64,000 nt of DNA, from assembly GCA_947474495.1 (NCBI GenBank), contig CANJIM010000005.1, positions 27 to 64,026 of the forward strand, written 5' to 3'. Below, piece by piece: positions 35,369 through 51,999 of this stretch. Source of the DNA: Rhodospirillaceae bacterium (GTDB taxonomy: Bacteria; Pseudomonadota; Alphaproteobacteria; SMXQ01). Each line of letters starts with the position of its first letter. The first letter of the stretch is position 1. The notes under the pieces were generated by a model. That model did not search any database and was not told the origin of the DNA. It saw only the letters and a list, made by a program, of their open reading frames with translations. The translations under genes were made by a program, and so were the position numbers.

Positions 35369-35905
35369 CTAACGGTTCGCCGCCGCGCGCTGCGGCGGAT
35401 CGATCCGGTTGAGGTCGTGGTCGCGAAGATTCCTAAGCATGCGCACCAGCGCATCCCGGAATTGCTGAGCGTCCCGCGAGGCGAAGCCATCGAGCAGGAT
35501 GCGTTCGTAATCTTTGTAGAACACCGGCTGGTTTTGCAGCGCAAGCTTGCGGCCTTTTGCCGTCAGGCTCACCTGTACCGAGCGGGCGTCTTCTGCATCG
35601 CGCTGGCGGCGAATCAGGCCGTTGTCGCCCATGCGGTCCAGCAGGCGCGACAGGGTGGAGATTTCGGCGCCGGTCAGCCGCGCCAGCTCCTTCACCGAGG
35701 CGCTGTCGCGTGACATCAGGCGAAACAGCACGCGCACGCCCTCGATGGTCAGGCCGTAAGCCCGAGCGCGCTTTTTCGCCGCGCCATCCACCAAATTGAG
35801 GATCTCGTGCATGACGAAGGGGATACTGCGCTCGGACTCGTCGATCGGCCGGTCGTCGTCAACCGACGAAGCGCGCGAGGCGGAGAGGCGAGCGGTATCG
35901 GCCAT
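35369..35905 (-). CDS. MarR-family transcriptional regulator
   Basis: Winged-helix core VRVLFRLMSRDSASVKELARLTGAEISTLSRLLDRMGDNGLIRRQRDAEDARSVQVSLTAKG. The start was chosen at MADTARL; the tracked ORF extends to 36013. Confidence 0.8.
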   Translation of the reverse strand: MADTARLSASRASSVDDDRPIDESERSIPFVMHEILNLVDGAAKKRARAYGLTIEGVRVLFRLMSRDSASVKELARLTGAEISTLSRLLDRMGDNGLIRRQRDAEDARSVQVSLTAKGRKLALQNQPVFYKDYERILLDGFASRDAQQFRDALVRMLRNLRDHDLNRIDPPQRAAANR

Positions 35906-36095
35906 GAAATCGGTCGCTGCAAGGTTGGAGAGCGGCGGGTCTTGAAGGCCCGGTTTTGCCGTGGCGCGGACTCTGCCGGGATTTAGTTGCAAACGCAACA
36001 ATTGATTTTGCAAATATTGCGGCGCAGCACGGCGGCCGAGTCATCTACAAGAGTCTGTGGATAAATCCGGGGCGGGTTGCAACAGCCAGCGCGGC

Positions 36096-38529: not shown

Positions 38530-40359
38530 ATGGCGACCCGCAACAAGAAATCGTCCGAAGGCAAGCTGGCCCATGCCGATCGTCCGGCGAAGCTCAGCAG
38601 CAATCGCCGCATGGGGTGGAATTCCGACGCCATCGCCGAATTCGCCCAGCGCCTCGATCTGAAATACATGAGCTTGGTGCCGGGCGCGAGCTATCGCGGC
38701 TTCCATGACTCGATCGTCAATTACCTCGGCAACACCAATCCGCAGATGGTCATCTGCATGCACGAGGAACATTCGGTCGCCATCGCCCACGGTTATGCCA
38801 AGGTCACCGAAAAGCCGATGTTTGTCAGCGTGCACAGCAACGTCGGCCTGATGCATGCCAGCATGGCGATCTTCAATGCTTGGTGCGACCGCGTGCCGAT
38901 GATCATCTTCGGCGCCACGGGCCCGGTCGATGCCGACCAGCGCCGGCCGTGGATCGACTGGATCCACACCGCGCGCGATCAGGGCGCTCTGATCCGCGAC
39001 TTCACCAAATGGGACGACCAGCCGGGCTCGGTGCCCGCCACCATCGAAGCCATTGCCCGCGCGCGCCAGATCACCCTGACCGCGCCGAACGGCCCGACCT
39101 ACATCAACCTCGATGCCGGCCTGCAGGAAGGCAAGCTGACGGGCGAGGTCGAATTCCCCGACATGTCGCGCTATGAGCCGGCTGCGCCGCCGGCCCCGCC
39201 GGCCGACAGCATCGCCGCAGCCGCCGATCTTCTCGTCAAGGCGAAGAAGCCGGTGTTCCTGTGCGGCCGCGTCTCGCGTAGCCAAGAAGACTGGGACAAG
39301 CGCGTCGAGCTGGCCGAGGCGATGGGCGCCGTGGTGCTCACCGACATGCACAATTCCTCGGCCTTCCCGACCGAGCATCCGCTGCACGTCGTCGAGGGCC
39401 GCTTCCGTCCGGCTGACGCCACCAAGCAGGTCATCGAGGCCGCCGACGTGATCCTCGCTTACGACTGGCTCGATCTCGCCGGCTTCCTGACGCAATGCAC
39501 CGGCTCGCCCAACGTCAAGGCGAAGGTCATCAACTGCTCGGTCGATATGTATATCCATCGTGGCTGGAGCATGGATTACCAGGCGCTGCCGGCCGCCGAT
39601 CTCTTCATGCTGTCACCGCCCGACGCGGTGACCGGCCCGTTGCTCGCCGCCATCGACAAGAAGACCAAGGGCGCGCGCTTCAAGACGCCGAAGATGAAGA
39701 TCAAGCTGGCCAAGCCGCCGGCGCCGCCCAAGAAGGGCGCCAAGGACGGCATGAGTCTGCGCGAGATGGCGAGCTGCGTCACCGAGGCGCTGGCCGGCAA
39801 GCCGGTGTCCTACGCCCGCGTGTCGCTCGGCTGGCCGGGCTTCGCCAGCAAGTTCACCGGCCCGATGGATTACTACGGCCATGACGGCGGCGGCGGCGTC
39901 GGCTCCGGCCCGGGCATCGCCATCGGCATCGCGCTCGCCCTGATGGGGTCGGGCCGCATTCCGGTCGCCATCGTCGGCGACGGTGACTTCATGATGGGCA
40001 GCAATGCCCTGTGGACCGCCGCGCGCTTCAAGATCCCGTTGTTGATGGTCGTCGCCAACAATCGCTCCTACTACAACGACGAGACCCACCAGGAGCGGAT
40101 GGCCATCGTTCGCGGCCGCCCGGTGGAGAACAAGTGGATCGGCCAGCGCCTCGACGATCCGGCCGTCGACCTGGCCAAGATCGCGGAGGCCCAGGGCATC
40201 GATTCGGAAGGTCCGATCTGGGAGCTGAAGGACTTGCCGGCGGCGCTTGCCCGTGGCGTCAAGGCGGTCCAGGCCGGCAAGCCCTATGTCATCGATGTCC
40301 GTATCGATCCGGGCTATGCCGAGATCAACATGACCACGGCGAGCCGCAAGAAGGGCTGA
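38530..40359 (+). CDS. Thiamine-diphosphate-dependent enzyme (acetolactate-synthase-like superfamily)
   Basis: The N-terminal PYR domain with the HEEHSVAIAHGYA catalytic-Glu region. TPP-binding motif GDGDFMMGSNALWTAARFKIPLLMVVANN. A possible later start lies at 38611 (MGWNSD). Confidence 0.8.
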   Translation: MATRNKKSSEGKLAHADRPAKLSSNRRMGWNSDAIAEFAQRLDLKYMSLVPGASYRGFHDSIVNYLGNTNPQMVICMHEEHSVAIAHGYAKVTEKPMFVSVHSNVGLMHASMAIFNAWCDRVPMIIFGATGPVDADQRRPWIDWIHTARDQGALIRDFTKWDDQPGSVPATIEAIARARQITLTAPNGPTYINLDAGLQEGKLTGEVEFPDMSRYEPAAPPAPPADSIAAAADLLVKAKKPVFLCGRVSRSQEDWDKRVELAEAMGAVVLTDMHNSSAFPTEHPLHVVEGRFRPADATKQVIEAADVILAYDWLDLAGFLTQCTGSPNVKAKVINCSVDMYIHRGWSMDYQALPAADLFMLSPPDAVTGPLLAAIDKKTKGARFKTPKMKIKLAKPPAPPKKGAKDGMSLREMASCVTEALAGKPVSYARVSLGWPGFASKFTGPMDYYGHDGGGGVGSGPGIAIGIALALMGSGRIPVAIVGDGDFMMGSNALWTAARFKIPLLMVVANNRSYYNDETHQERMAIVRGRPVENKWIGQRLDDPAVDLAKIAEAQGIDSEGPIWELKDLPAALARGVKAVQAGKPYVIDVRIDPGYAEINMTTASRKKG

Positions 40360-40382
40360 GTTCCCGCCGCCCAAGACCGATC

Positions 40383-40420
40383 GGGCCGGGTCCGCGATGG
40401 CGGGCCCGGCCCTTTTCTTT
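40383..40420 (+). terminator. Rho-independent terminator after the TPP-enzyme gene
   Basis: GGGCCGGGTCCGC-gatg-GCGGGCCCGGCCC followed by TTTTCTTT (one mismatch in the stem). Confidence 0.7.
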
Positions 40421-40584
40421 GGCGGCGGCGGTTAAAGCCTTTTTGGCCCGTTTCATTGAGCTTATTGCAGGGAATCGCCGTTGCCCGCGTTTGGGCGAGC
40501 GTTTAGGATGCGCCCCTTGCCGATAGCCCCCTGCGCGTTGCCGGGCCGTTCCCGCCTTGACGGGTTTGGGGCTAAATGCAAAGG

Positions 40585-40606
40585 TATCTAATCATTAGAT
40601 ATCAAT
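40585..40606. promoter_or_regulatory. Operator candidate S1: a 17-bp perfect palindrome TATCTAAT-C-ATTAGATA overlapping TTAGATATCAAT
   Basis: The perfect palindrome is read directly from the sequence. The site shares the 12-mer ATTAGATATCAA with S2 (48783-48794). Its centre is about 135 bp upstream of the Rieske-ferredoxin ATG. Confidence 0.6.
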
Positions 40607-40734
40607 CAAACTAGGGCGCTGGGGGCTCGCGGCTTGTTAGGTCGCGCTGTTTTGGCGTCGGGGGATCGGCTCATCGGAGCCGGCATGACCATGATGGCCG
40701 CCCGGGACGGGCGCCGCAGGAGAGAGAACGTTTT

Positions 40735-41046
40735 ATGGCCCAAGAGCACCGCGTAGCGAAAGTCGGCGACATCGAGGCGGAGTCCGGCAAGCATTTCAAG
40801 ATCGGCGACCTCGAAATCGCCGTATGGAATAACGAAGGCAAGTTCTACGCGACCGACGCGATCTGCACCCACGCATGGGTGTCGCTGATCGACGGCTATG
40901 TCGAGGACGGCTGCGTCGAGTGCCCGCTGCATGCGGGGCGCTTCGAGTTGGCCACCGGCAAGGCGCAGGGCGCGCCGGTGTTCGTCGATCTCAAGACCTA
41001 CCCGCTACGCATCGACGGCGACGATATCGTGATCGAGACGCCGTAA
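40735..41046 (+). CDS. Rieske-type [2Fe-2S] ferredoxin component
   Basis: CTHAWVSL...CVECPLHAGRF (C-x-H ... C-x2-H). 103 aa. AGGAGAGAG RBS. Confidence 0.85.
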   Translation: MAQEHRVAKVGDIEAESGKHFKIGDLEIAVWNNEGKFYATDAICTHAWVSLIDGYVEDGCVECPLHAGRFELATGKAQGAPVFVDLKTYPLRIDGDDIVIETP

Positions 41047-41076
41047 GGCGCCACACTCAACCGCAGGGAGGCGGCA

Positions 41077-41670
41077 ATGAGCGATAAGGCGGCCAATCAA
41101 GCTAAAAAGGGCGGCGCGAAAATTCCGCGCATTCCGTTCGAGGACTTCGAGCCGGGCTTGAAAGAGTCTTTGCGCCCGAAGGTCGAGCGCCTGGGCTATT
41201 GCGGCGAGATCTGGCAGATCGGCGCCAATGTGCCGAAGTCGATGCTGTCCTTCTGCAACATCACCGAAGACCTGAAAGACGAAATACCGATGAAGATCGT
41301 CGAGCTCGTCGCGCTCACGGTCGCCGGCGTGATGGACAACACCTACGAGCGCAATCAGCACGAGAACCTTGCCGACAAGCTTGGCTACGGGCGCGACTGG
41401 ATCGCCGCCGTGAATGCGCTGAAGGCCGACGAGGCCGAGGCGCTGTCGCCCGATGAGCGCAAGATTCAGAAGTTCGTCATTGCCGCGATTTATCGCCGTG
41501 GCCAGGATTGCGGCAAGCTGTTCGACGACGTCGTCGAGGCGGTCGGCCCCAAGAGCGCGACCGGCATCCTGCTGTCGATCGGTCGTTGCGTGCAGCATGC
41601 CATTTTCCGCAACGTGCTCGAGCTTGAGCCGCCGGTGAAGTCGATCTTCGAAAAGGGCCAGGCGGCATGA
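41077..41670 (+). CDS. AhpD-like / carboxymuconolactone-decarboxylase-superfamily protein, paralogue A
   Basis: All-helical 197-aa protein with a VALTVAGVMDNTYERNQHENL block. GGGAGG RBS. The family assignment is tentative. Confidence 0.55.
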   Translation: MSDKAANQAKKGGAKIPRIPFEDFEPGLKESLRPKVERLGYCGEIWQIGANVPKSMLSFCNITEDLKDEIPMKIVELVALTVAGVMDNTYERNQHENLADKLGYGRDWIAAVNALKADEAEALSPDERKIQKFVIAAIYRRGQDCGKLFDDVVEAVGPKSATGILLSIGRCVQHAIFRNVLELEPPVKSIFEKGQAA

Positions 41671-42230
41671 GCGACGTCAAAGGTACAGAGCATCTCGTTC
41701 CGCGCATCGCGTTCGAGGACATCGAGCCGAAGCTGAAGGAGCTGTTCCGTCCGCGTGTCGAGCGGCTCGGCTATCTCGGCGAGTTCTTTCGAGTCATGTC
41801 GGCGCAGCCCGAGACCATGCTCGGCTATTTCACCATCACCGAGAGTTTGAAGAAGGCGCTGCCGGACAACTTCACCGAGATCATCTCGCTGTCGATCTCC
41901 AGCCGCCTCGGCAATCTCTACGAGCAGTATCAGAACGAGCAGCTGAGCCGCAAACTCGGTTTCTCCGACGAGTGGATCCGCGAAGCCCTCGAAGGGCAGG
42001 GCGCTAGCCAGCTGTTCGACGCCAAGGAAAAGGCCGTGCAGGACTACGCTATCGCCGCGGCGCTGCGCTCGGGCCGCGACGTCGAAGCCGAGTTCGAAGC
42101 CTTGGTCAAGGCCGTCGGTCCCGAGCAGGCCATTGCCGTCGTCTGGCTCGTCATCCGCACGGTGTCGCACGCCATCATCAGCAACACGCTGCAGCTGGCT
42201 TCGCCGGTCAAATCGATTTTCGCCGTATAA
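41667..42230 (+). CDS. AhpD-like / CMD-superfamily protein, paralogue B
   Basis: ATGA overlap with paralogue A. It aligns with A along its full length (PRI.FED.EP.LKE..RP.VERLGY.GE ... SPVKSIFA). The equivalent block reads LYEQYQNEQL. Confidence 0.55.
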   Translation: MSDVKGTEHLVPRIAFEDIEPKLKELFRPRVERLGYLGEFFRVMSAQPETMLGYFTITESLKKALPDNFTEIISLSISSRLGNLYEQYQNEQLSRKLGFSDEWIREALEGQGASQLFDAKEKAVQDYAIAAALRSGRDVEAEFEALVKAVGPEQAIAVVWLVIRTVSHAIISNTLQLASPVKSIFAV

Positions 42231-42255
42231 TCAGAAGAAATCTCCAGGAGCCATC

Positions 42256-43263
42256 ATGTCCACGCACGATATCGTCATTCCCGACACCTTTCTGTGGATC
42301 AGCGAAGCCGACGTCTGCTCGCTGATCGACTTGAAGGACAGCATCACGGCCCTGGAAAAGGGCCTGATCATGGAAGCGAATGGCGAAGCCATCAACATGA
42401 CCAAGACGCAGACCGTGTGGAAGAGCGGCAGCCTGAACGTGACAGGCGCCCAGTTCACCGGCGCCGGCCTGGTCGGCGCGAAGGTCTGGTCGAACGCCAA
42501 CCTCGGCGCTGCGCCGCTCATCATCCTGCACGGCTCGGAAGACGGCCAGATCCGTTCGATCATCGAAGCTTTCGCGCTCGGCCAGATGCGCACCGCCGCC
42601 CTGTCGTCGGTCGCCACCAAATGGCTGGCGGATGAGAAGGCCGACGAGATGACCATGATCGGTTCGGGCCATCAGGCCCTGCCGCAGGTCTCCGCCGTCA
42701 TGTCCGTGCGCCCGATCAAGCGCGTGCGCGTGTGGAGCCGCACCCCGGCCAACCGCGCCGCCTTCGTCGCCGACATCAAGAAGGCCTATCCCAAGATCGA
42801 AGTTGTCGATTGCGCCTCGCCGGAAGAAGCGGTGAAGAATTCGCCGATCATCACGACCTTCACGCGCGCCAAAGAGCCCTATATTTTCGCCGACATGCTG
42901 GCGAAGGGCGCCCATATCAACGCCGGCGGCGCGATCATCCCGACCAACAAGGAAATCGACACCAGCGTGCTGATGCGCTGCGACAAGATCATTTGCGACA
43001 ATCTTGCGCAGGTCCAGAAGGGCGCCAAGGAACTGATCGATTATGTGGCGGCCGGCGGCAGCTGGGACAAGGTCAAACCGATTTGTGATCTTGTGAAAGA
43101 GCAAAAACCCCGCCCGGCCGGCGCGGACCTCACTATATATAAGTTCATGGGTATGGGGCTGGCGGACATGGCGTCCGCCGTCGAAGTCTACCAGCGAGCC
43201 GTGGCCAAGAAGGTGGGAACAGACTACCCCCACCCGAAACGCTCGCAGCCGAAACTGCTGTAA
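42256..43263 (+). CDS. Ornithine cyclodeaminase / mu-crystallin family NAD(P)-dependent enzyme
   Basis: ATG at 42256 with GGAG upstream. Rossmann motif MTMIGSGHQA. Family-typical RTAALSSVATKWLA. Confidence 0.75.
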   Translation: MSTHDIVIPDTFLWISEADVCSLIDLKDSITALEKGLIMEANGEAINMTKTQTVWKSGSLNVTGAQFTGAGLVGAKVWSNANLGAAPLIILHGSEDGQIRSIIEAFALGQMRTAALSSVATKWLADEKADEMTMIGSGHQALPQVSAVMSVRPIKRVRVWSRTPANRAAFVADIKKAYPKIEVVDCASPEEAVKNSPIITTFTRAKEPYIFADMLAKGAHINAGGAIIPTNKEIDTSVLMRCDKIICDNLAQVQKGAKELIDYVAAGGSWDKVKPICDLVKEQKPRPAGADLTIYKFMGMGLADMASAVEVYQRAVAKKVGTDYPHPKRSQPKLL

Positions 43264-43289
43264 TCTCTCTCGACGAGACGGAGGAACAA

Positions 43290-44429
43290 ATGCCGTTCGA
43301 TTTTGAACAGAAATTTAAGATGGTGGATGCCTCGGGCCGCCAGACGCCTGACGTCCACACCTGGAAGGACCATTCGATGGACCTCTGGGCGCCGCTCATC
43401 ATCCGCAAGGAAGAGATCGACGCCGAGGTCGAGCGGTTGGCCGCTCTGCCGCGCCCGAACAACGGCGTGCGCCGCACCCAGTTCGTGCATCCGCAGTGCG
43501 AAGAAGGCCTCAAGAGCTTCGCGCCGGGTATCGGCCTGTCGCTCGATGTCCTGTTGCCGGGCGAGCGCACCCAGCGCGTCCGTACCAACTCGTCGATCGT
43601 CAACTTCCCGATCAAAGGCGCCGGCTCGATGATCGTCGGCGACAAGCGCTTCGAGTTCGGCCAGTACGACGTGCTCACCACGCCGTCGATGGCGGTGCAC
43701 GAGTACATCAACGACACCAAAGAGATTCAGGTGCGTCTGCGCTACGACAACGCGCCGCTGCTCGAGCGCCTGAAGATCCATTGGCTCGACGAGAATCCGC
43801 CGGAGCACACCACCGACGTGCATGACGCCAAAGCGGAATACGAGGCCAAAGGCAAGGAATTGCCGCAGAGCCCCTATGGCACCTTCCAGCTTACCGAAGA
43901 CGGCGCCTGGATGATGCCCTACGAGAAGCTCATCAACCCCGAGCCGATCTCGATCACGCCGCACCAGTGGCCGTGGAAGAAGGTCAAGACCGAGCTCGAC
44001 AAGCTTGCCGATCTCGGCGCGAGCTATAAGGGCCGTCGTCTATACCTGCTGTGGGACCCGGCGACGGGCCGCACCAACGGCACCAACCCGAACTTCTTCT
44101 CGGCCATCACGATCCGTCCGCAAGGCATCGTCGATCGCCCGCATCGCCATGCTTCGGCCGCCATCAACTACTACTTCGGCGGCGAGGGCCATTCGGTGGT
44201 GCAGGGCCAGCGGCTCGACTGGAAGGCCGGCGACCTGATGTTCTCGGCGCCAGGCTGGGCGATCCACAACCACGCGACCGACGTCGGCCCCGTGTACGAG
44301 ATGACCATTCAGGACATGCCCTTCTGCATCAACACCGACGCGCTGCTGTGGCAGGAAGACCTTAAGGGTCCGATCTCGCTCCTCGGCTCGCACGCCGGCT
44401 TCGAAACCAACCGCACCAAGGTGGCCTAA
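43290..44429 (+). CDS. Bicupin dioxygenase-like protein (gentisate 1,2-dioxygenase-like)
   Basis: GGAGGA RBS. 379 aa with two cupin barrels (…ERTQRVRTNSSIVNFPIKGAG… and …RPHRHASAAINYYFGGEGHS…). Confidence 0.7.
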   Translation: MPFDFEQKFKMVDASGRQTPDVHTWKDHSMDLWAPLIIRKEEIDAEVERLAALPRPNNGVRRTQFVHPQCEEGLKSFAPGIGLSLDVLLPGERTQRVRTNSSIVNFPIKGAGSMIVGDKRFEFGQYDVLTTPSMAVHEYINDTKEIQVRLRYDNAPLLERLKIHWLDENPPEHTTDVHDAKAEYEAKGKELPQSPYGTFQLTEDGAWMMPYEKLINPEPISITPHQWPWKKVKTELDKLADLGASYKGRRLYLLWDPATGRTNGTNPNFFSAITIRPQGIVDRPHRHASAAINYYFGGEGHSVVQGQRLDWKAGDLMFSAPGWAIHNHATDVGPVYEMTIQDMPFCINTDALLWQEDLKGPISLLGSHAGFETNRTKVA

Positions 44430-44430
44430 C

Positions 44431-45363
44431 GTGATTAAGCTGAAGAAGAATTTTCTGCGCGGCTCTTACCCGCCCGCCGTTACCCCGTTCAAGAACGGCA
44501 AGGTGGATTACGCCAAGTTCGAGGAAGTCGTCGACTACATGATCGTCAACGGCAGCCATGGCGTGCTCATCACCGGCACGACCGGCGAGCCGTCGACGCT
44601 GACCAGCGATGAGCGCAAGCAGCTCTACAAGATCGCCGTCGACGTCACCGCGAAGCGCGTGCCCGTCGTCGCCGCCACCGGCTCGCAGTCGGAAGCGGAA
44701 ACGATGGACCTGAGCTATGCCGCCGAAAAGGCCGGCGTCGATTCTCTGCTCGTCGTCACGCCGTACTACGTCCGTCCGCCGCAGCGCGGCCTGGTCGAGT
44801 ACTACGTGCAGATCGGCAAGAAGATCGACCTGCCGCTGATGATCTATCACATTCCCGGCCGCACGGCCGTGAGCGTGACCCTCGACACCGTCGAGCAGAT
44901 CATGAACCGCACCGAAAACCTCGTCGGCATCAAGCACGCGGTGAACGACATGGGCTTCGTCACCCACGCGCTCGACCGCTTCGGCTTCGACTTCCGCGTG
45001 TTCGTCGGCCTCGAAGACCTCAGCTTCCCGATGCTCTGCATCGGCGCCTGCGGCCTGATGAACGCCGTCGGCAACATCGCGCCGCGCAAGGTCGCCGACC
45101 TCTATGAGCAGACGGTCGCCGGCAACATCGAGAAGGCCCGTAAGATCCACTACGAGCTGACCGAGTTGAACGAGTCGGTGTTCTACGACACCAACCCGAT
45201 CGCGATTAAGTACATGATGATGAAGATGGGCGTTCTCGAGAAGAACGAGCATCGCCTGCCGATGATGTCGGCGACCGCCGAAGTGGCCGCGCGACTGGAC
45301 GGCGTCATGAAGCGCGCCGGCTTGACCGGCAACGGCAAGAAGGCGAAAAAGAAAGCGGCTTAA
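44431..45363 (+). CDS. Dihydrodipicolinate-synthase/N-acetylneuraminate-lyase family class I aldolase
   Basis: GTG lies 1 nt after the previous stop, with AAGGTGG upstream. GTTGEPSTLT, IYHIPGRT and the Schiff-base Lys in VGIKHAVND. Lys-rich tail. Confidence 0.85.
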   Translation: MIKLKKNFLRGSYPPAVTPFKNGKVDYAKFEEVVDYMIVNGSHGVLITGTTGEPSTLTSDERKQLYKIAVDVTAKRVPVVAATGSQSEAETMDLSYAAEKAGVDSLLVVTPYYVRPPQRGLVEYYVQIGKKIDLPLMIYHIPGRTAVSVTLDTVEQIMNRTENLVGIKHAVNDMGFVTHALDRFGFDFRVFVGLEDLSFPMLCIGACGLMNAVGNIAPRKVADLYEQTVAGNIEKARKIHYELTELNESVFYDTNPIAIKYMMMKMGVLEKNEHRLPMMSATAEVAARLDGVMKRAGLTGNGKKAKKKAA

Positions 45364-45387
45364 GCGCGTCTTTTTCTGCAGAACCGA

Positions 45388-45421
45388 AGCCCGGCGGAGA
45401 GATCCGCCGGGCTTTTTCTTT
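45388..45421 (+). terminator. Rho-independent terminator ending the 40735-45363 operon
   Basis: AGCCCGGCGG-agagat-CCGCCGGGCT followed by TTTTCTTT. Confidence 0.8.
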
Positions 45422-45603
45422 GCGCAGAGAGAGACTTCATGCGTCGCCGCGCATTGATGGATATTTCGGATAGATCGGCTGACCAAGCCGCCGGGCATGG
45501 AACCAATTCCTAACCGAAATCGTTAGTTGTCAGTTAGTCTGGAATAATGCTGAAACGCGCTGCTGTTCTCGTGATTCGCGCCTTGTAGACCGAGCGAGAT
45601 GGC

Positions 45604-46824
45604 ATGACGCTGCAGGATGCACCCATGCCGTTCGCCTCAAATGAACAGCTAAATAGTCCCTCGATGCCAGCGCAGCAGCGTAGCTCGGCGCGCGGCCATT
45701 TGGCTGTGCTCGACGACGAAGCGATGTTTTGCGAATTTGTCGGTGAAGCGGCAGATATTTGCGGCTACGACGCCTTTTTTACAACGCGACCGGATGCGTT
45801 CTTCCAGCATATCGAACGCCATCCCGCGGCGGTGATCGTGCTCGATCTGCTCATGCCGGGGATGGATGGAATGCAGGCCTTGCGCCGTCTCGCCGAAGAA
45901 GGCGTGAAAGCGTGCATATTGCTCGCCAGCGGCGCCGACGGTCAGGTGCTCGATAACGCGATATGTCTGGGCCGCGAGCATGGGTTGAACATGACCGGCA
46001 TCATCCGCAAGCCGATCGATCTTGACGCTTTGCGCGAGCTGCTCGAAAGCCAGGTGCAAGTCGTTAGTCCAGTGATTCAGGCGCATCTCGAAGCCGCTTT
46101 GTCGGGCGACGAGTTGAAGTTGCATTACCAACCCATTTTGGATCTCCGCACGGGTCGTCCAGTCGGTGTCGAAGCCCTGGTGCGTTGGCATCACCCGCAA
46201 CTTGGCCTGGTAATGCCTTCGGCCTTTGTGCCGCTGGCTGAGCAAGGTGGTCTGATTGGCGCCTTAACCGATTGGGCGTTGGCGGAGGCGGTGACGCAGA
46301 ATGCCGCTTGGCGGAGCGCGGGCACTATGTTGAAGATCGCTGTCAACGTCTCCAATGCCAGCGCCCCCGACCCCGGCTTGCCCGAACGGCTCGAGCGCAT
46401 GTGTAGCGACGCAGGACTGCCGCCCTCCGCCATTGCGCTCGAGCTGACTGAAAGCGTGGCGACCGGAGATCCGGCCCGCGCCATGGAATTATTCGTTCGT
46501 CTGCGCTCCAAGGGTTTCGATCTGTCGATCGACGATTTCGGCACGGGCTATTCGTCGCTCGCCCAGTTGCAGCGATTGCCGTTCACGTCGCTCAAGATCG
46601 ACCGCTCTTTCGTATCGTCGGTTCTATCGTCCGACGCCAGCGCCTCGATCGTGCTGGCAATTATCTCCCTTGCTCATGCCCTCGGCCTAACATGTATTGC
46701 CGAAGGCGTCGAATCGGCGGAGACATTGCTGTTTCTCAAAGAGAACGGCTGTGATTGCGCCCAGGGCTATCACATTGCCCGGCCCATGCCGGCCACGGAC
46801 ATTCCCGCCTTCTGCCGGGCATAA
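45604..46824 (+). CDS. Response-regulator receiver + EAL domain protein (putative c-di-GMP phosphodiesterase)
   Basis: REC (LAVLDDEAMF...VIVLDLLMPGMDG...RKP). EAL domain (EALVRW, ELTE, DDFGTGYSS, KIDRSF). Confidence 0.85.
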   Translation: MTLQDAPMPFASNEQLNSPSMPAQQRSSARGHLAVLDDEAMFCEFVGEAADICGYDAFFTTRPDAFFQHIERHPAAVIVLDLLMPGMDGMQALRRLAEEGVKACILLASGADGQVLDNAICLGREHGLNMTGIIRKPIDLDALRELLESQVQVVSPVIQAHLEAALSGDELKLHYQPILDLRTGRPVGVEALVRWHHPQLGLVMPSAFVPLAEQGGLIGALTDWALAEAVTQNAAWRSAGTMLKIAVNVSNASAPDPGLPERLERMCSDAGLPPSAIALELTESVATGDPARAMELFVRLRSKGFDLSIDDFGTGYSSLAQLQRLPFTSLKIDRSFVSSVLSSDASASIVLAIISLAHALGLTCIAEGVESAETLLFLKENGCDCAQGYHIARPMPATDIPAFCRA

Positions 46825-46860
46825 AAAAACCCGGCGAGGTGAAGCGCCGGGTTTTTTTGT
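46824..46860. terminator. Bidirectional rho-independent terminator
   Basis: AAAAAAACCCGGCG-aggtgaag-CGCCGGGTTTTTTT between convergent genes. Confidence 0.8.
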
Positions 46861-46871
46861 TTCGCTCTTTT

Positions 46872-47387
46872 TTAAAGCGGGTAGACGATCGTAGCCGGCA
46901 CCATTTCCGAATCATAGACGCAGAGACGCTCTTTCAGTTTCAACGCGCCGCCTTGGCGCGTGAAAATGTCCATGTAGCGGCCGGCGTTGAGAATCTTGGT
47001 GTATTCGCCGGGCAGCGTCTCCAGCACCTGATAGTTCGCTTCGGCCCGTACCGTGTCGCCCCCCGTCGCGTCATGGGCCACGCTGCGGATGCGCGTGTTG
47101 GTGATGAAATGGCGCAGGTAGCGCTTGCGGTAGACCGTCGTCTTGGTGACGCCGACGACACGGTCGGTCAGGCCGCCATGGCCCTCGGCGTAAATCACCG
47201 CGAGCGGCAGGTTCTGTTCGAGGTTCTCGCGCGGCAGCACCTTGTAGATGCAGTCCGGCGTGAAGAAGCCGATCCAGTCGTTCAAATCGCCGTCGTCGAG
47301 GCAATCGGCATAGGCGGTATTGAATTCATCGATCTCAGCGCGGAGCGCGGCAAGGTCTTCGGCGCGGAGCTTGGTGGTCGTGGTCAT
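46872..47387 (-). CDS. Aromatic-ring-hydroxylating oxygenase beta (small, NTF2-like) subunit
   Basis: DEFNTAYADCLDDGDLNDWIGFFTPDCIYKV...RHFITNTRI...GRYMD is typical of the small subunit. The ATG lies 2 nt after the alpha stop; the alternative TTG at 47393 overlaps it. Confidence 0.85.
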   Translation of the reverse strand: MTTTTKLRAEDLAALRAEIDEFNTAYADCLDDGDLNDWIGFFTPDCIYKVLPRENLEQNLPLAVIYAEGHGGLTDRVVGVTKTTVYRKRYLRHFITNTRIRSVAHDATGGDTVRAEANYQVLETLPGEYTKILNAGRYMDIFTRQGGALKLKERLCVYDSEMVPATIVYPL

Positions 47388-47389
47388 GT

Positions 47390-48643
47390 TCAAAGCCCCA
47401 TCACTTTGCGGTAGCCGTCATAGAAGGCGCGAATCGCCGTTTCGGTGACCATATGGTCGGTATCCTCGACGCCGCGCCCACCCATCTCGACCACCGCGTC
47501 GCTGGCGGCATATTTCGAGATGCCGGCCTGGATCGCTTCCATCACTTCCGAATCGTCGGCCGAGACATAGCCAGCCGGGCCCATCAGATTGGCCTGGCGC
47601 AAGCGCTTCTGCGTCATTTCCTCGGACTCGTCGGCGAAACCGAAGTAGGTCCAGTGAAGTTCGAACTCTTCCGGGCCGACGAGATGAATCTGGCGCATCG
47701 CCAGCGTGTTGGACTGCTGCTGCACCATCAGGTTCGGCCAGATGGTCTGCATCACCACGGTTGCTTCGCCAGGGAATTCTTTTTCCGGCTGTAGCATCAG
47801 AGGATTGGCGAGGGTGAAACTCGCCTGGTTCTGACGGATGTCGGCGGTTGTGTCGTCGGCCTTCTTCTCGCCGCGCTGCGAGACCAGCACGGAATGCAGG
47901 CCGAGCTTCTCGTCCATCTGCACCTTCGACGGGTTGTCGGCGCGGAACAGGCTGAAGGAGACGAGGAACACATGCAGCAGGGAGGCGTGGTAGGGGTCCT
48001 TGATATTCTCGAACACCAGCTTCCAATTGCAGCGGATGCGTTGGCGCTGATAGCCGAGCACCTTCAACGGACGGCCGCTGAAAACACGGTCGAACCAGCC
48101 GACCATCTTGGGACCGATATATTCCTCGAACGACGGCATGGAATGATCGAAGCTGGCGAAGATCACGCCGTGGCGCGTCGCCACTTTCAGCTTCTGCAGG
48201 CCGTTCGCCTTCATGTCGAAGTCGCCCGGCATGCCGCCCTGCTTTTGCAGACCGCGGCGGAAGGGCACGGCGGTGGTCTCGCCCTTCAGATTGTAAGTCC
48301 ACTGATGGTAGGGGCAGATGAATTCGGTTTTGCCAGAGCCGTGCATGTCGTAGCAGAACTGCACGCCGCGATGGGCGCAGCGATTGACCACGACCTGCAC
48401 CTGACCGTCCTCGTCGCGCATGAAGATCACAGGCTTGTCGCCGACCTTGGTCTGGCGGAAGTCGCCAGGCTTCGGAATTTCGCATTCAAGGCCAATGTAA
48501 TTGTAGCTGGCGCCGCCGAACACCATCTCCTGCTCGCGCTTGTAAATCTCCGGCGAGGAATAGACCCAATAGGGCACCCGCGACGGGCCTTCCTTCGGCC
48601 ATTTGAGATTGAGCAAATTGTCGGTCTGTACGGCGGTGGCCAT
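47390..48643 (-). CDS. Rieske non-haem iron oxygenase alpha (large) subunit
   Basis: Rieske CAHRGVQFC...CPYHQWTY. Iron site NWKLVFENIKDPYHASLLH. The ATG at 48643 has CAGGGA 8 nt upstream; the tracked ORF starts at 48652. Confidence 0.9.
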   Translation of the reverse strand: MATAVQTDNLLNLKWPKEGPSRVPYWVYSSPEIYKREQEMVFGGASYNYIGLECEIPKPGDFRQTKVGDKPVIFMRDEDGQVQVVVNRCAHRGVQFCYDMHGSGKTEFICPYHQWTYNLKGETTAVPFRRGLQKQGGMPGDFDMKANGLQKLKVATRHGVIFASFDHSMPSFEEYIGPKMVGWFDRVFSGRPLKVLGYQRQRIRCNWKLVFENIKDPYHASLLHVFLVSFSLFRADNPSKVQMDEKLGLHSVLVSQRGEKKADDTTADIRQNQASFTLANPLMLQPEKEFPGEATVVMQTIWPNLMVQQQSNTLAMRQIHLVGPEEFELHWTYFGFADESEEMTQKRLRQANLMGPAGYVSADDSEVMEAIQAGISKYAASDAVVEMGGRGVEDTDHMVTETAIRAFYDGYRKVMGL

Positions 48644-48780
48644 CGGTCGCATCCCTGTTCTGTATGCCGGTAGCTGCGGCGGGTGTCCGGAGACGCTGGG
48701 GCGACGATGGGCTTTTGGCCGGACATCGCGGGAGTTGATCCCGTCATTCGTCCCGCAGCGTGAGTGGCTCTCCTGAACAA

Positions 48781-48795
48781 AGATTAGATATCAAA
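48781..48795. promoter_or_regulatory. Operator candidate S2: AGATTAGATATCAAA
   Basis: It contains the same 12-mer ATTAGATATCAA as S1. Its centre is about 147 bp upstream of the oxygenase alpha start, in the divergent spacer. Confidence 0.55.
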
Positions 48796-48969
48796 TTAAA
48801 TTCGCCGGAGCAAGCGGAACGGCTCTGCCAGCAGCATTTGTGACCTGCAGTTTCTTCAGCGTGACCAGGTTTGCGTGATTTTTTTGCGGATGCGCAATGC
48901 AGCAGTTATGCGCAGCTAATTTGAGTGTCGGAAAAAATCCGGCTTGGGCGGGCGAAAAAGCCGTGCCTA

Positions 48970-48985
48970 TGATTAGACATCTAAC
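48970..48985. promoter_or_regulatory. Operator candidate S3: TGATTAGACATCTAAC
   Basis: TTAGACATCTAA matches the palindrome TTAGATATCTAA at 11 of 12 positions. Its centre is about 147 bp upstream of the TAXI-TRAP SBP ATG. Confidence 0.55.
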
Positions 48986-49124
48986 GGCTGGCGGAGGTGG
49001 GGATCATTACCCGCCCGGCAATCGACCAGCCGACGGGGAGAGACGTTCCAGAAGATCGCCATAACGGATCGATCCGCGCCGCAGAACGTCGGCGCGAACA
49101 GAAATCGACAGGAAGGACTGGGAG

Positions 49125-50123
49125 ATGCGGAAGATCGCTTTAGCATGCGCGGCCGTTGCCGGCATGACCTTCGCAATGATGTCGGGCGCCGTTCAGGCGC
49201 AGCCCTATCAGATCTCGCTGGCCGGCGCGAGCCCGGGCGGTTTGTGGTCGAACATCGGCATCGGCATGGATCAGGTGATGAAGGCCGCCTATCCCGGCTC
49301 GACCGTCACCTATCAGACCACCGGCGGCGGCTTCGCCAACGCCATCCTCTTGCAGCAGAAAAAGGTGCCGATCGGCATTATCCACAATGTGGAGCTGAGG
49401 ATGGCGCAGAACGGCGTCGATCCTTTCAAAGCGCCGATCACGGAGATTCGTCCGCTCGCTTATCTTTACGATTGGTCGCCGTTTCAGCTCCTCCTGACCA
49501 AGGACTTCGCCGACAAGTACGGGATCAAGACGTTCGAGGATCTGATCGTCAAGAAGGCGCCGGTGCGCATGGTACTCAACCGCCGCGGCAACGTCGCCCA
49601 TGACGTCGCCATCAGCATGCTGAAGGTCAACGGCGCCAGCCTTGACGACATCAAGGCCTGGGGGGGCAACGTCGTGCTCGCTGGCTCGGAAGAGCAGAGC
49701 GACTTGATGAAGGACCGCCGCGTCGACATGATCTTCAACAGCCTGTTCGTCGGCATCCGCTCGCTCGTCGAAGTTGGCACGTCAGTCAACGTCGTCATGT
49801 TGCCGGTCGGCAAGGAGACCGTCGACAAGGTCGGCAAGGAGATGGGCACGGATCCCTATGTTATTAAGGCCAACTCCTACCCGTTCCAGCCAAGCGATGT
49901 CCCGACGCTGACCATGGGCGCCTTCGTCGCGGCCAACAAAGACATGCCGGACGCGCAGGCTCAGGCAATCACCAAGGCTCTCATCGAGAAGATCGACGCC
50001 ATGCGCGCCGTGCATCCGTCGATGAAGGAATTGACGCCGCAGCTGCTGCCCAGTCTGGCCGGCAATTTCCCCTACCATCCCGGTGCCATCGCAGCCTACA
50101 AGGCGGCCGGCTTGATGAAGTGA
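49125..50123 (+). CDS. TAXI-family TRAP transporter solute-binding protein
   Basis: Signal peptide MRKIALACAAVAGMTFAMMSGAVQA. ISLAGASPGGLWSNIGIGM and YQTTGGGFANAILL are typical of the TAXI/immunogenic-protein family. Confidence 0.8.
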   Translation: MRKIALACAAVAGMTFAMMSGAVQAQPYQISLAGASPGGLWSNIGIGMDQVMKAAYPGSTVTYQTTGGGFANAILLQQKKVPIGIIHNVELRMAQNGVDPFKAPITEIRPLAYLYDWSPFQLLLTKDFADKYGIKTFEDLIVKKAPVRMVLNRRGNVAHDVAISMLKVNGASLDDIKAWGGNVVLAGSEEQSDLMKDRRVDMIFNSLFVGIRSLVEVGTSVNVVMLPVGKETVDKVGKEMGTDPYVIKANSYPFQPSDVPTLTMGAFVAANKDMPDAQAQAITKALIEKIDAMRAVHPSMKELTPQLLPSLAGNFPYHPGAIAAYKAAGLMK

Positions 50124-50160
50124 GTCGAGCCTAGTCTATTCGTCAGTCGGAGTTCGTTCA

Positions 50161-51999
50161 GTGTCCGTCGCGGAAGTTCTGTTCAGCACCGGCATGCAGC
50201 GCCAGCTTTCGCCGGCGATGGATGCTGCGGTTAAACCGGTCGGTGTGGCGATCACCTGCGGGGTGATCTATTCCACGGTCATCGCCACGCCCGACCTGTT
50301 CGCCATGACGACGATCTTCCTGTCGGCGGTGCTGGCGCTCTGCTTCCTCACCATCACGCCGACGTCGAAGGAAGCCGATCGCATCCATCCGATCGATTGG
50401 CTGTTGGCGACGGCGTCGGTGGCGGTCGGCATCTTCTTCGCCATGAATACGAAGATGCTGATCGAGCGCATCGCCCTGTTCGACGATCTGTCGACGCAGG
50501 AGATGATTTTCGGAAGTCTGCTGCTGTTCCTGGTGGTAGAAATTTCGCGGCGCGCGACCGGCCTTGGCCTCACTGTGCTGGTACTGATGTTTTTCGCCTA
50601 TAACCTATGGGGCCATGTCCTGCCCGGCGCCATGGGCCACGGCTATATCTCCTACGGCCATTTCCTCGACCTCATCGCTTTTACCACCGACGGCATCTTC
50701 GGCGGACCGCTGCGCGTTGCGGCGACCTACGCCTTCCTCTTCGTGCTGTTCGGCGCTGTGCTCAACAAGGCCAAGGGTGGCGAGTTCTTCTTCGATATTG
50801 CCTCGGCCATGACCGGCCGCGCCGTCGGCGGCCCAGCCAAGATCGCCGTGGTCTCATCCGGCCTCTATGGCACCATCTCGGGCAATCCGGTGGCCGACGT
50901 GGTGACCACCGGCGCCGTGACCATTCCGGTGATGAAGCGCCTCGGCTATCCCGCCGCGCTCGCCGGCGGCATCGAGGTCGCGGCCTCGACCGGCGGCAGC
51001 TTGGCGCCGCCAGTGATGGGCTCTGCCGCTTTCATCATGGCGGAATACACCAGCATTCCCTATGCCGACATCGCCATTGCGGCGACCCTGCCGGCCTTCC
51101 TTTATTACCTCGGCGTCTACGCCCAAGTGCATCTCTACGCCGCCAAGCACAAGCTGCGCGGCCTGGAGGACGAAGTGCTGCCGAAGGTGCTGCCGACGCT
51201 GTTGCGCGGTTGGGTTTTCATCGTGCCGCTGGTGGTGCTCGTCGTCTTCATCATTCTCGGCTATTCCGCCAACCTGACGGCGATCGGCGCGACCATTGCC
51301 GTTTTCCTGATGACGCTGTTCGACAAGCGCACGCGGCTCGGCGTGATTGCCATTTATGACGTGCTGGCGGAGGCGGCGCTCCGCATGGTGCCGGTGGCCG
51401 GCGCTTGCGCCGCGGCCGGGCTTATCGTTGGCGCACTCAGCATGACAGGGCTCTCGGTGAAATTCGTCGACGTCATCACGCTGCTGACCGGCGACAGCCT
51501 GTTCCTCACCCTACTTGTTACCGCGCTGCTCACGCTGCTGCTCGGCCTCGGCTTGCCGACCTCGAGCTCTTACATCCTGGCCGCCGTGCTGATCGCGCCA
51601 GTGTTGACCAGGCTCGGCCTCTCGGTGATGGCCGCGCATATGTTCATTCTCTATTACGCCGTGCTGTCGGCGCTGACGCCGCCGGTCGCAGTGGCGGGCT
51701 ATGCCGCGGCGGCCATCGCGCAGGCCAATCCGCTGACGATCTCGGTGCTGGCCTGCCGCATGTCGATCGTCGCTTTTATCGCGCCCTTCAGCTTCGCCTA
51801 TGGCGAGTCGCTGTTGCTGGTCGGTGAATGGTACGTGATCCTCGCCACTTTGATCTCCGCGTCGCTCGGCGTGATCCTGTTGGCGGTTGGGTTGGAAGGC
51901 TATTTCCGCCAGCCGTTGAACAGGCCCTTGCGCGCGCTGGCCGCTATAGCCGGCTTGGTGTTCCTAGCGCCGGCGGCGTTCTACTCGATTTTCGATTAA
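50161..51999 (+). CDS. TRAP transporter fused permease (TAXI-type small+large membrane component)
   Basis: 612 aa, highly hydrophobic throughout. It directly follows the TAXI SBP. GTG start, uncertain. Confidence 0.8.
   Translation: MSVAEVLFSTGMQRQLSPAMDAAVKPVGVAITCGVIYSTVIATPDLFAMTTIFLSAVLALCFLTITPTSKEADRIHPIDWLLATASVAVGIFFAMNTKMLIERIALFDDLSTQEMIFGSLLLFLVVEISRRATGLGLTVLVLMFFAYNLWGHVLPGAMGHGYISYGHFLDLIAFTTDGIFGGPLRVAATYAFLFVLFGAVLNKAKGGEFFFDIASAMTGRAVGGPAKIAVVSSGLYGTISGNPVADVVTTGAVTIPVMKRLGYPAALAGGIEVAASTGGSLAPPVMGSAAFIMAEYTSIPYADIAIAATLPAFLYYLGVYAQVHLYAAKHKLRGLEDEVLPKVLPTLLRGWVFIVPLVVLVVFIILGYSANLTAIGATIAVFLMTLFDKRTRLGVIAIYDVLAEAALRMVPVAGACAAAGLIVGALSMTGLSVKFVDVITLLTGDSLFLTLLVTALLTLLLGLGLPTSSSYILAAVLIAPVLTRLGLSVMAAHMFILYYAVLSALTPPVAVAGYAAAAIAQANPLTISVLACRMSIVAFIAPFSFAYGESLLLVGEWYVILATLISASLGVILLAVGLEGYFRQPLNRPLRALAAIAGLVFLAPAAFYSIFD

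What the first reader, a model, noticed from the sequence alone, without database searches (positions are those of the whole stretch)
40585..48985. Shared AT-rich palindromic operator upstream of three transcription units of the supercluster
Three sites share the core GATTAGA(T/C)ATC(A/T)AA, with palindromic consensus TTAGATATCTAA. S1 is at 40585-40606. It is embedded in a perfect 17-bp palindrome TATCTAAT-C-ATTAGATA, which gives three half-sites. S2 is at 48781-48795 and S3 at 48970-48985. S1 and S2 share an identical 12-mer (ATTAGATATCAA), which is improbable by chance in about 65% GC DNA. The site centres lie about 135, 147 and 147 bp upstream of the first start codons of the ferredoxin operon, the oxygenase alpha/beta genes and the TAXI-TRAP genes respectively. 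This implies a single dimeric HTH regulator controlling all three units. No obvious cognate regulator gene lies inside the cluster (only a REC-EAL gene). The reductase and TPP-enzyme promoters lack the motif.
Basis: seen in the sequence. Interest (0 to 1): 0.62.

Follow-up and report, generated by a model that had tools for sequence, protein, structure and literature searches.

The report
Shared MarR-type operator of a catabolic regulon
The three AT-rich sites are real, conserved binding sites of the kind recognised by MarR-family repressors. They tie an uncharacterised aromatic-degradation gene cluster, plus one or two unlinked genes, into a single regulon whose likely regulator is encoded elsewhere in the genome.

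Summary
S1 (40585-40606), S2 (48784-48795) and S3 (48973-48984) exist as described, and a window match of this quality was never reached in 100 shuffles.

Genome-wide (2.99 Mb, 63.5% GC), ATTAGAYATC occurs four times. Three are S1-S3. The fourth is a perfect TTAGATATCTAA about 50 bp upstream of an unlinked 63%-identical paralogue of the cluster's bicupin dioxygenase.

The unit is a 12-mer, TTAG-N4-CTAA. It is conserved upstream of the ferredoxin operon, the oxygenase operon and the second bicupin across about ten genera of the same uncultured alphaproteobacterial family. It always sits 12-23 nt after a CTTGAC-like -35 hexamer, which is a repressor position.

This is the operator class of the MarR-family proteins MepR (GTTAG-N4-CTAAC) and SlyA (TTAGCAAGCTAA).

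The MarR gene beside the cluster carries a different conserved palindrome and is probably not the binder. The best candidate is a MarR on contig C23:
- Its orthologue in deltaproteobacterial MAGs is divergent from the same oxygenase-bicupin operon, with TTAGATATC sites in the shared spacer.
- Its orthologue is adjacent to the module in an outgroup alphaproteobacterium.
- In most sister genera its own promoter carries two such 12-mers.

This is an ordinary mechanism governing a new regulon. No binding or transcript data exist.

The parts
40580..40591 (.). S1-left 12-mer AAAGGTATCTAA (degenerate copy; AAAGATATCTAA in sister species)
40595..40606 (.). S1-right 12-mer TTAGATATCAAT; the two S1 copies are 15 bp apart centre to centre
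40585..40601 (.). Perfect 17-bp palindrome TATCTAAT-C-ATTAGATA, formed by the inner arms of the two S1 12-mers
40557..40562 (+). TTGACG, a -35-like hexamer 17 nt before S1-left. It is inferred only from its fixed position across genera
   Evidence: not found by the strict E. coli-type scan
40383..40412 (+). Terminator-like hairpin after the TPP-enzyme gene; makes the ferredoxin operon its own transcription unit
40735..45363 (+). Target unit 1: Rieske ferredoxin, two unknown about 190-aa proteins, OCD/mu-crystallin, bicupin, DHDPS-family
48784..48795 (.). S2 12-mer TTAGATATCAAA (TTTGATATCTAA on the gene strand). TTTGATATCTA is invariant in 14 of 16 orthologous oxygenase promoters
48808..48813 (-). 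TTGCTC, a -35-like hexamer 12 nt before S2. This would place a TGaTATCTA extended -10 inside the operator (inferred)
   Evidence: not found by the strict scan
46872..48652 (-). Target unit 2: Rieske oxygenase alpha (47390-48652) and beta (46872-47393)
48973..48984 (.). S3 12-mer TTAGACATCTAA with both arms perfect. It is present only where the TAXI genes are divergent, in this genome and G004
48944..48972 (+). TTGGGC-N17-CTATGA, a promoter-like pair ending 1 nt before S3 (inferred)
   Evidence: read from the sequence, not detected
49125..51999 (+). Target unit 3: TAXI-type solute-binding protein and fused DctQM permease
35369..36013 (-). Cluster-linked MarR gene (true start probably the ATG near 35902), syntenic with the cluster in the genera where that flank could be read. 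It is a rival, less likely binder
35987..36013 (-). 27-bp palindrome TTGCAAAATCAA-TTG-TTGCGTTTGCAA upstream of the cluster MarR. It has the same two 12-mers plus 3 bp layout as S1 but different arms (TTGC/GCAA)

Best explanation
S1, S2 and S3, together with a fourth site on contig C32 (3318-3329, upstream of a second bicupin dioxygenase gene), are operators of one MarR-family winged-helix dimer. The unit is the 12-bp palindrome TTAG-N4-CTAA with AT-rich flanks. One dimer binds per 12-mer. S1 has two abutting 12-mers, and many orthologous promoters have two copies 21 bp apart. Each site lies 12-23 nt downstream of a CTTGAC-like -35 hexamer, so it covers the -10 region and transcription start and the protein acts as a repressor. 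By analogy with other catabolic MarR proteins, a substrate or pathway intermediate, probably an aromatic acid, releases it. That would switch on the ferredoxin/ring-cleavage operon, the Rieske oxygenase genes, the TAXI-TRAP transporter and the unlinked bicupin together. The most likely regulator is not the MarR next to the cluster. It is the 166-aa MarR encoded at contig C23:16192-16692, upstream of two class II aldolase genes. Shown here: the motif, its rarity, its conservation and fixed promoter position, the match to known MarR operators, and the linkage of C23-type MarR orthologues to the motif and to the operon in other lineages. Inferred: binding, repression, the inducer and the exact transcription starts.
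For: Rarity. ATTAGAYATC occurs 4 times in 2.99 Mb, and all four lie in these promoters. TTAG-N4-CTAA occurs 6 times. A PWM built from all family sites ranks C32, S2 and S3 as 1-3 and S1 as 7. In 8 relatives the pattern is roughly 3-25 times rarer than its reversed control.

Functional coherence. The fourth site precedes a 63%-identical paralogue of the cluster bicupin.

Conservation. The whole cluster is syntenic across the family. The 12-mer is retained upstream of the ferredoxin operon, the oxygenase alpha gene and bicupin-2 in about ten genera, while the surrounding spacer diverges.

Position. The offset from TTGnnn/TTGACA hexamers is fixed.

Known class. The MepR operator is GTTAG-N4-CTAAC, and the crystallised oligo contains TTAGATATCTAA; it covers the -10 and TSS, and the mepA operator has two abutting sites (PMC3936728). 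The SlyA consensus is TTAGCAAGCTAA (PMC5797941).

Regulator.
- In seven deltaproteobacterial MAG loci a MarR gene is divergent from the RHOa-RHOb-OCD-bicupin-DHDPS operon. The spacer reads CTTGACG-N20-TAAGAATACTTAGATATCTTTGCATTAGATATC, which shares 17 nt with the alphaproteobacterial ferredoxin promoters.
- That MarR is 56% identical (E 8e-51) to the C23 MarR and 26% identical to the cluster MarR.
- The C23-type MarRs form one clade (support 90/89), separate from the cluster type (99/99).
- The C23-type gene is present in all but two sampled family genomes, and it sits next to the module in outgroup G034.
- Its own promoter carries TTGGAATTCTAA-N19-TT(A/C/T)GCAAGCTAA in most of the sister genera sampled.
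Against: The strict sigma-70 scan finds no promoter at any site, so the -35/-10 assignments rest on cross-genus alignment alone. In this genus the C23 MarR promoter has only a degenerate element (CCTTAGGCTTCGATATATCC), so autoregulation here is unproven. The genome has about 12 MarR paralogues, and DNA specificity cannot be read from sequence. In oxygenase promoters the invariant TTTGATATCTA could owe part of its conservation to RNA polymerase rather than to the regulator.
Confidence: 0.68

Rival explanations
1. The MarR encoded beside the cluster (35369-36013, in the TauE-MarR-UbiD unit) is the protein that binds the TTAG-N4-CTAA sites.
For: It is syntenic with the cluster in the genera where that flank could be read. 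It is a bona fide MarR with weak similarity to SlyA structures. Its upstream palindrome has the same layout as S1, two 12-mers plus 3 bp.
Against: Its own conserved upstream element has arms TTGC/GCAA, not TTAG/CTAA, and no TTAG-type site is found near it in any genus. The MarR that sits divergent to the operon in delta MAGs is only 26% identical to it and falls in another clade. Genus g3 keeps half-sites without this MarR in the locus.
Confidence: 0.13
2. The shared sequence is mainly a promoter element (an extended -10 TGnTATCTA and AT-rich discriminator) of a common promoter type, not a regulator-binding site.
For: In oxygenase promoters TTTGATATCTA lies exactly where an extended -10 would be, 12 nt after a TTGnnn hexamer, and it is invariant.
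Against: The register relative to the -35 differs between promoters: 12, 17-18 and 23 nt. At bicupin-2 promoters the centre varies while the palindromic arms TTAG/CTAA are kept, and sites often come in pairs 21 bp apart. The same arms recur in the promoter of a MarR gene. The motif is absent from the rest of the genome's promoters.
Confidence: 0.07
3. A Crp/Fnr-family (CprK-like) ligand-sensing regulator binds the sites, read as a 5-N4-5 box ATTAG-N4-CTAAT.
For: The geometry equals an FNR box. A Crp/Fnr gene is divergent from a bicupin copy in four genomes.
Against: Those same promoters carry a canonical TTGAT-N4-ATCAA box that accounts for the Crp/Fnr gene. No -10-like element lies at the class II distance from S1 or S2 (read). 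The linked regulator in delta MAGs and in G034 is a MarR.
Confidence: 0.05
4. The matches are chance matches or copies of a small repeat or mobile element.
For: The spacers are AT-rich in a GC-rich genome.
Against: 0 of 100 shuffles reach the observed count. Only 4 copies exist, all in promoters of one pathway. The sites are positionally conserved in orthologous spacers of many genera.
Confidence: 0.01

Closest known systems
MepR operators of Staphylococcus aureus mepR/mepA (MarR family; PMC3936728)
   Same: It is an inverted repeat (G)TTAG-N4-CTAA(C), and the palindromised crystallisation DNA contains the exact consensus found here, TTAGATATCTAA. The sites cover the -10 and transcription start. 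One promoter has two abutting sites. AT-rich flanks are needed for wing contacts.
   Different: MepR is a local autoregulated repressor of an adjacent efflux pump in a Firmicute. Here at least four dispersed promoters of a catabolic pathway are involved. The candidate regulator is unlinked in this genome and shares only family-level similarity with MepR (E about 3e-6).
SlyA/RovA high-affinity site TTAGCAAGCTAA (PMC5797941, PMC6401476)
   Same: The 12-bp geometry and arms are the same. Sites in sister genera (TTAGAAAGCTAA; TTCGCAAGCTAA and TTAGCATGCTAA in the MarR promoter) differ from the SlyA consensus by only 1-2 bases. SlyA-type proteins respond to aromatic carboxylates.
   Different: SlyA is a pleiotropic counter-silencer in Enterobacteriaceae that binds many degenerate sites. 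Here the site set is small and specific, and the positions indicate plain repression.
Aromatic-acid catabolic MarR repressors (HpaR, CouR, PcaV, HcaR)
   Same: A MarR dimer represses ring-hydroxylation, ring-cleavage and transport genes from operators that overlap the promoters, and is released by a pathway substrate or CoA ester. The C23 MarR hits CouR, PcaV and HpaR structures.
   Different: Those regulators are normally encoded next to their targets and have other operator sequences. Here the pathway (AhpD-like, OCD-family, bicupin, DapA-like) is uncharacterised and the inducer is unknown.
UrtR subfamily (HucR, PecS, MftR) operators T-N2-CT-N8-AG-N2-A (PMC11602129)
   Same: The 17-bp palindrome in S1 (TATCT-N7-AGATA) superficially resembles this consensus.
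   Different: The spacing is one base short (N7, not N8). The pattern is absent from S2, S3 and the C32 site. The candidate MarR was not examined for the UrtR N-terminal helix signature. Rejected as the relevant class.

Membership tests
MarR-family operator of the MepR/SlyA type | 12-bp inverted repeat TTAG-N4-CTAA | tested here: met
   The C32 site and S3 have perfect arms, S2 has one arm mismatch and S1-right has two. In 35 family sites (70 with reverse complements) G4/C9 are kept in 69 of 70 and T1, T2/A11, A12 in 64-65 of 70.
MarR-family operator of the MepR/SlyA type | AT-rich flanks for minor-groove wing insertion; high affinity needs about 22 bp | tested here: inconclusive
   The flanks are AT-rich at S2 (AAAGA...ATTAAA), at S1 and at the g10 oxygenase sites (AATAC...GTATT). 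They are mixed at S3 and at the C32 site.
MarR-family operator of the MepR/SlyA type | Operator overlaps the -35/-10/TSS of the repressed promoter | tested here: inconclusive
MarR-family operator of the MepR/SlyA type | A cognate MarR gene linked to the sites, usually divergent and autoregulated | tested here: met
   This is met by comparison, not in this genome. The gene is divergent in delta MAGs and adjacent in G034. The motif lies in its own promoter in most sister genera. In this genome the gene is on another contig with only a degenerate upstream element.
MarR-family operator of the MepR/SlyA type | Direct binding by the MarR dimer and release by a small ligand | not testable with these tools
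   This needs EMSA, footprinting or ITC with purified protein.
MarR family (candidate regulator C23:16192-16692) | Winged-helix MarR domain, about 150-170 aa | tested here: met
   PF12802 1.5e-13 and PF01047 2.7e-12. The best PDB relatives are MarR-family structures.
FNR/FixK box (second element of the bicupin-2 promoter) | TTGAT-N4-ATCAA centred about 41 bp before the start | tested here: inconclusive
   A perfect TTGATCCAGATCAA lies at C32:3297-3310, and it is conserved in g1 and g9. There are only 7 copies in the genome, 5 of them intergenic. A Crp/Fnr gene is adjacent in 4 genomes. The TSS is unknown.

The most novel reading that the evidence does not exclude
The C23-type MarR and its TTAG-N4-CTAA operators form a regulator-operator module that has travelled with an unrecognised aromatic ring-cleavage pathway (AhpD-like, OCD-family, bicupin, DapA-like) between Alphaproteobacteria and deltaproteobacterial lineages. 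In this family it has become a trans-acting regulator of a dispersed regulon. Within that regulon, a second bicupin isoenzyme carries both the MarR operator and an FNR/FixK box. That arrangement would let the cell switch to a low-oxygen version of an oxygen-dependent ring-cleaving enzyme. The MarR's ligand would then directly reveal the unknown substrate of the pathway.
Probability: 0.3. Interest if true: 0.55.

Novelty: new member of a known kind. Interest (0 to 1): 0.38.

Why it matters
The cluster is an orphan catabolic pathway in uncultured Alphaproteobacteria, and its substrate is unknown. A defined operator and a named candidate repressor give three things: an experimental handle, a regulon map and a possible biosensor.

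The handle is practical even without a culture. Express the MarR, find the compound that releases it from a 25-bp DNA, and the pathway inducer is identified.

The regulon map links an unlinked bicupin paralogue, and possibly a LigB dioxygenase, to the pathway.

The regulatory logic itself (a MarR repressor on a TTAG-N4-CTAA palindrome) is textbook.

Tried and rejected
- **UrtR consensus.** The UrtR (HucR/PecS) consensus was compared with the S1 palindrome. The spacing is wrong, and the pattern is absent from the other sites.
- **Cluster MarR.** It was examined as the regulator. Its promoter carries a different palindrome, and no TTAG-type site lies near TauE, MarR or the reductase gene in any genus.
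- **Other TTAG-N4-CTAA hits in the genome.** C1:21725 lies between convergent genes. C19:12204 lies before a 98-aa gene. C27:25635 is at a gene start. None is next to a regulator.
- **Half-site near another MarR.** The ATTAGATA half-site near the C26 MarR is a chance match; that promoter has its own TTCAATATTGAA palindrome.
- **C23:19707.** TTCGATATCTAT lies inside a coding region.
- **Promoter scans.** Strict sigma-70 scans found nothing at S1-S3 or at the C32 site.
- **Leader RNA.** No Rfam family matches in 36000-53000. The ferredoxin-operon leader folds no better than shuffles, z = +0.83, so there is no support for a riboswitch or attenuator despite a terminator-like hairpin at 40628-40646.
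- **Neighbours of bicupin-2 in other genera.** These are Na/H exchangers, proteins without Pfam hits, and Crp/Fnr genes. They gave no candidate other than the FNR-type factor.


Full report
**What is in the sequence**

The three sites are present as reported.
- S1 is TATCTAATCATTAGATATCAAT at 40585-40606, and it contains a perfect 17-bp palindrome at 40585-40601.
- S2 is GATTAGATATCAAA at 48782-48795.
- S3 is GATTAGACATCTAA at 48971-48984.

A search of the window with ATTAGAYATCWAA, allowing one mismatch, finds only these sites. The expected count is 0.03, and 0 of 100 shuffles reach the observed number.

The window is part of contig C5 of a 2.99-Mb, 127-contig, 63.5% GC genome. Related records are titled as uncultured Alphaproteobacteria MAGs.

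**Genome-wide rarity and a fourth site**

In the whole genome, ATTAGATATCAA occurs twice (S1 and S2) and ATTAGAYATC four times.

It lies about 50 bp upstream of the ATG at C32:3373. That gene encodes a 379-388-aa bicupin that is 63% identical to the bicupin inside the cluster at window 43290-44429. An unlinked paralogue of a cluster enzyme carrying the best copy of the motif is independent evidence that the motif marks one functional regulon.

Further scans give the same picture:
- With up to two mismatches to the consensus there are 13 hits in the genome. All hits with 0-1 mismatch belong to the regulon.
- The arm pattern TTAG-N4-CTAA occurs six times.
- In eight related genomes this pattern is roughly 3-25 times rarer than its non-complemented reverse control.

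**Genes**

- 37141-38388: ferredoxin reductase.
- 38530-40359: TPP enzyme, followed by a terminator-like hairpin at 40383-40412.
- 40735-45363: Rieske ferredoxin, two proteins of about 190 aa without Pfam hits, an OCD/mu-crystallin protein, the bicupin and a DHDPS-family protein.
- 45604-46824: REC-EAL protein.
- 46872-48652 (minus strand): Rieske oxygenase beta and alpha.
- 49125-51999: TAXI-TRAP transporter.
- 33822-36863 (minus strand, upstream of the cluster): a TauE, MarR and UbiD unit.

**Phylogenetic footprinting**

The bicupin is found in 32 of 101 relatives. That covers nearly every genome of the family, and most have two copies.

Twenty 20-kb loci show that the whole arrangement is syntenic across about ten genera: UbiD-MarR-TauE | Red-(TPP)-Fd-UnkA-UnkB-OCD-bicupin-DHDPS | RHOb-RHOa, then TAXI/DctM, CtaA and SiR.

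In these loci the 12-mer recurs at the same places while the surrounding spacer diverges.
- Upstream of the ferredoxin operon it reads, for example, TAAGAAGTCTAA in genus g10.
- Upstream of oxygenase alpha, TTTGATATCTA is invariant in 14 of 16 promoters.
- Upstream of the second bicupin it reads TTAGAAAGCTAA, TTAGAAGTCTAA, TTAGATACCTAA or TTAGGTATCTAA, often as two copies 21 bp apart.

A frequency matrix was built from 35 sites, counted with their reverse complements. G4/C9 are kept in 69 of 70, T1, T2/A11, A12 in 64-65 of 70, A3/T10 in 58 of 70, and the centre is A/T-rich. So the conserved unit is TTAG-N4-CTAA.

In sister species S1 is two full copies, AAAGATATCTAA-TCA-TTAGATATCAAT. This genome has one substitution in the left copy.

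No site occurs at the reductase, TPP, TauE or MarR promoters in any genus. S3 exists only in this genome and in G004, the two where the TAXI genes are divergent from the oxygenase genes.

**Position in the promoters**

Sequences aligned on the 12-mer show a CTTGAC-like hexamer at a fixed distance:
- 12 nt before the oxygenase site. This makes TGaTATCTA an extended -10 lying inside the operator.
- 17-18 nt before the ferredoxin-operon site.
- 23 nt before S3, with CTATGA as a possible -10.

At the C32 promoter the site lies between a perfect FNR/FixK-type box (TTGATCCAGATCAA, C32:3297-3310) and the expected -10.

These are repressor positions. They are inferred, for two reasons.

**Which kind of protein**

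The motif is a known operator class.
- MepR, a MarR-family repressor, binds GTTAG-N4-CTAAC. The palindromised 26-mer used for its crystal structure and binding studies, TATTTAGTTAGATATCTAACTAAATA, contains the exact consensus found here. The mepR operator covers the -10 and the transcription start, and the mepA operator has two abutting sites (PMC3936728).
- The SlyA consensus is TTAGCAAGCTAA (PMC5797941).
- SlyA-type proteins are released by aromatic carboxylates (PMC6401476).

The UrtR consensus (T-N2-CT-N8-AG-N2-A; PMC11602129) does not fit.

**Which MarR**

The genome has about 12 MarR-family genes.

The cluster-linked gene (35369-36013) is preceded in every genus by a different palindrome, TTGCAAAATCAA-TTG-TTGCGTTTGCAA (window 35987-36013). 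This element has the same layout as S1, two 12-mers plus 3 bp, but its arms are TTGC/GCAA. It probably autoregulates the MarR-UbiD unit through that element. Its annotated TTG start lies inside the element, so the true start is a downstream ATG.

A wider search with a bicupin alignment returned the best 80 of 462 loci. In seven deltaproteobacterial MAG loci a MarR gene is divergent from an RHOa-RHOb-OCD-bicupin-DHDPS operon. The spacer reads CTTGACG-N20-TAAGAATACTTAGATATCTTTGCATTAGATATC. The stretch TTAGATATCTTTGCATT is identical to the ferredoxin-operon promoter of two sister species of this genome.

The evidence that links this delta MarR to the MarR on contig C23 is as follows.
- It is 54-58% identical (E 8e-51) to the MarR at C23:16192-16692 and only 26% identical to the cluster MarR.
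- In a maximum-likelihood tree the C23-type proteins form one clade (support 90/89). The clade includes the delta MAGs and outgroups G034 and G031, and it is separate from the cluster-type clade (99/99) and from the other paralogues.
- The C23-type gene is present in all but two sampled family genomes. In outgroup G034 it lies immediately after the oxygenase beta gene of the module.
- In most of the sister genera sampled its promoter carries TTGGAATTCTAA-N19-TT(A/C/T)GCAAGCTAA. That is the same motif class and almost the SlyA consensus.
- In G012 and G023 a further site, TTAGTATTCTAA, precedes an operon 7-12 kb from this MarR.

In this genus the upstream element of the C23 gene is conserved but degenerate (CCTTAGGCTTCGATATATCC), so autoregulation here is uncertain.

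**Possible fifth target**

The identical 12-mer TTAGTATTCTAA lies at C10:43678-43689. It sits about 50 nt upstream of a LigB-family extradiol dioxygenase gene and is divergent from a BLUF gene. The same arrangement is seen in G003.

**Rivals**

- The cluster MarR as the binder is possible but disfavoured, at about 0.13.
- A purely promoter-element reading fails. The register to the -35 differs between promoters, the arms rather than the centre are conserved at bicupin-2, and the same arms recur in a MarR promoter.
- A Crp/Fnr-type reader is unnecessary, because those promoters have their own canonical FNR box.
- Chance and a repeat element are excluded.

**Verdict**

This is a well-supported operator of a MarR-type repressor. 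It defines a regulon of four, perhaps five, promoters for an uncharacterised aromatic catabolic pathway, and a specific trans-encoded regulator can be proposed.

The mechanism is ordinary. The value is practical, as a route to the inducer and so to the substrate of an orphan pathway. Binding, repression and the ligand remain untested.

Noticed in passing
contig C32:3297-3310 (L001 3297-3310): A perfect FNR/FixK-type box, TTGATCCAGATCAA, lies 7 nt upstream of the TTAGATATCTAA site of the second bicupin gene. It is conserved in genera g1 and g9. A Crp/Fnr gene is divergent from a bicupin copy in G002, G003, G013 and G020. This suggests oxygen-dependent control of one of two ring-cleavage isoenzymes. 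The genome has only 7 such boxes.
   Followed up: partly
window 35987-36013 (minus strand): A 27-bp palindrome, TTGCAAAATCAA-TTG-TTGCGTTTGCAA, lies upstream of the cluster MarR and is conserved in all genera. It is probably that MarR's own operator. The listed TTG start (36013) lies inside it, so the real start is a downstream ATG (about 35902).
   Followed up: partly
contig C10:43678-43689 (L186 3678-3689): TTAGTATTCTAA lies about 50 nt upstream of a LigB-family extradiol dioxygenase gene and is divergent from a BLUF photoreceptor gene. The identical 12-mer precedes catabolic genes in G003, G012 (twice) and G023. It may be a fifth regulon member.
   Followed up: partly
window 36985-37030: A direct repeat, CTATGAATTTTTC ... 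CTATGAATTTTCC, lies in the TauE/reductase divergent spacer. A CATGCTAACCAC block about 50 nt before the reductase start is conserved in several genera. Both are possible control elements of the reductase/TPP unit.
   Followed up: no
window 40628-40655: A terminator-like hairpin plus CTGTTTTGG lies in the roughly 130-nt leader of the ferredoxin operon, and GTTTTGGCGTCG is conserved within the genus. The leader folds no better than shuffles (z = +0.83) and has no Rfam match.
   Followed up: yes
window 45604-46824: The REC-EAL gene is present only in this genus (duplicated in G002 and G004), inserted between the DHDPS-family and oxygenase beta genes. It lies outside the conserved cluster and has no TTAG site.
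   Followed up: partly
contig C23:16750-19521 (L152 4750-7521): The candidate regulator gene is followed by two class II aldolase/adducin-family genes and a 398-aa gene without Pfam hits. Homologous aldolase-II genes (27-30% identity) sit in the deltaproteobacterial version of the cluster.
   Followed up: partly
L040-L046 (genera g8 and g10), between TauE and the reductase gene: About 1 kb is inserted here relative to this genome. It appears to hold one extra gene that is absent from this genus, while the TPP-enzyme gene is absent from g10. The periphery of the cluster is therefore variable.
   Followed up: no
contig C26:7895-8353 and upstream: Another MarR gene is followed by a second TauE-like gene and a pirin gene. 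Its promoter has a 12-bp palindrome, TTCAATATTGAA, with the same 4-N4-4 geometry and different arms.
   Followed up: no
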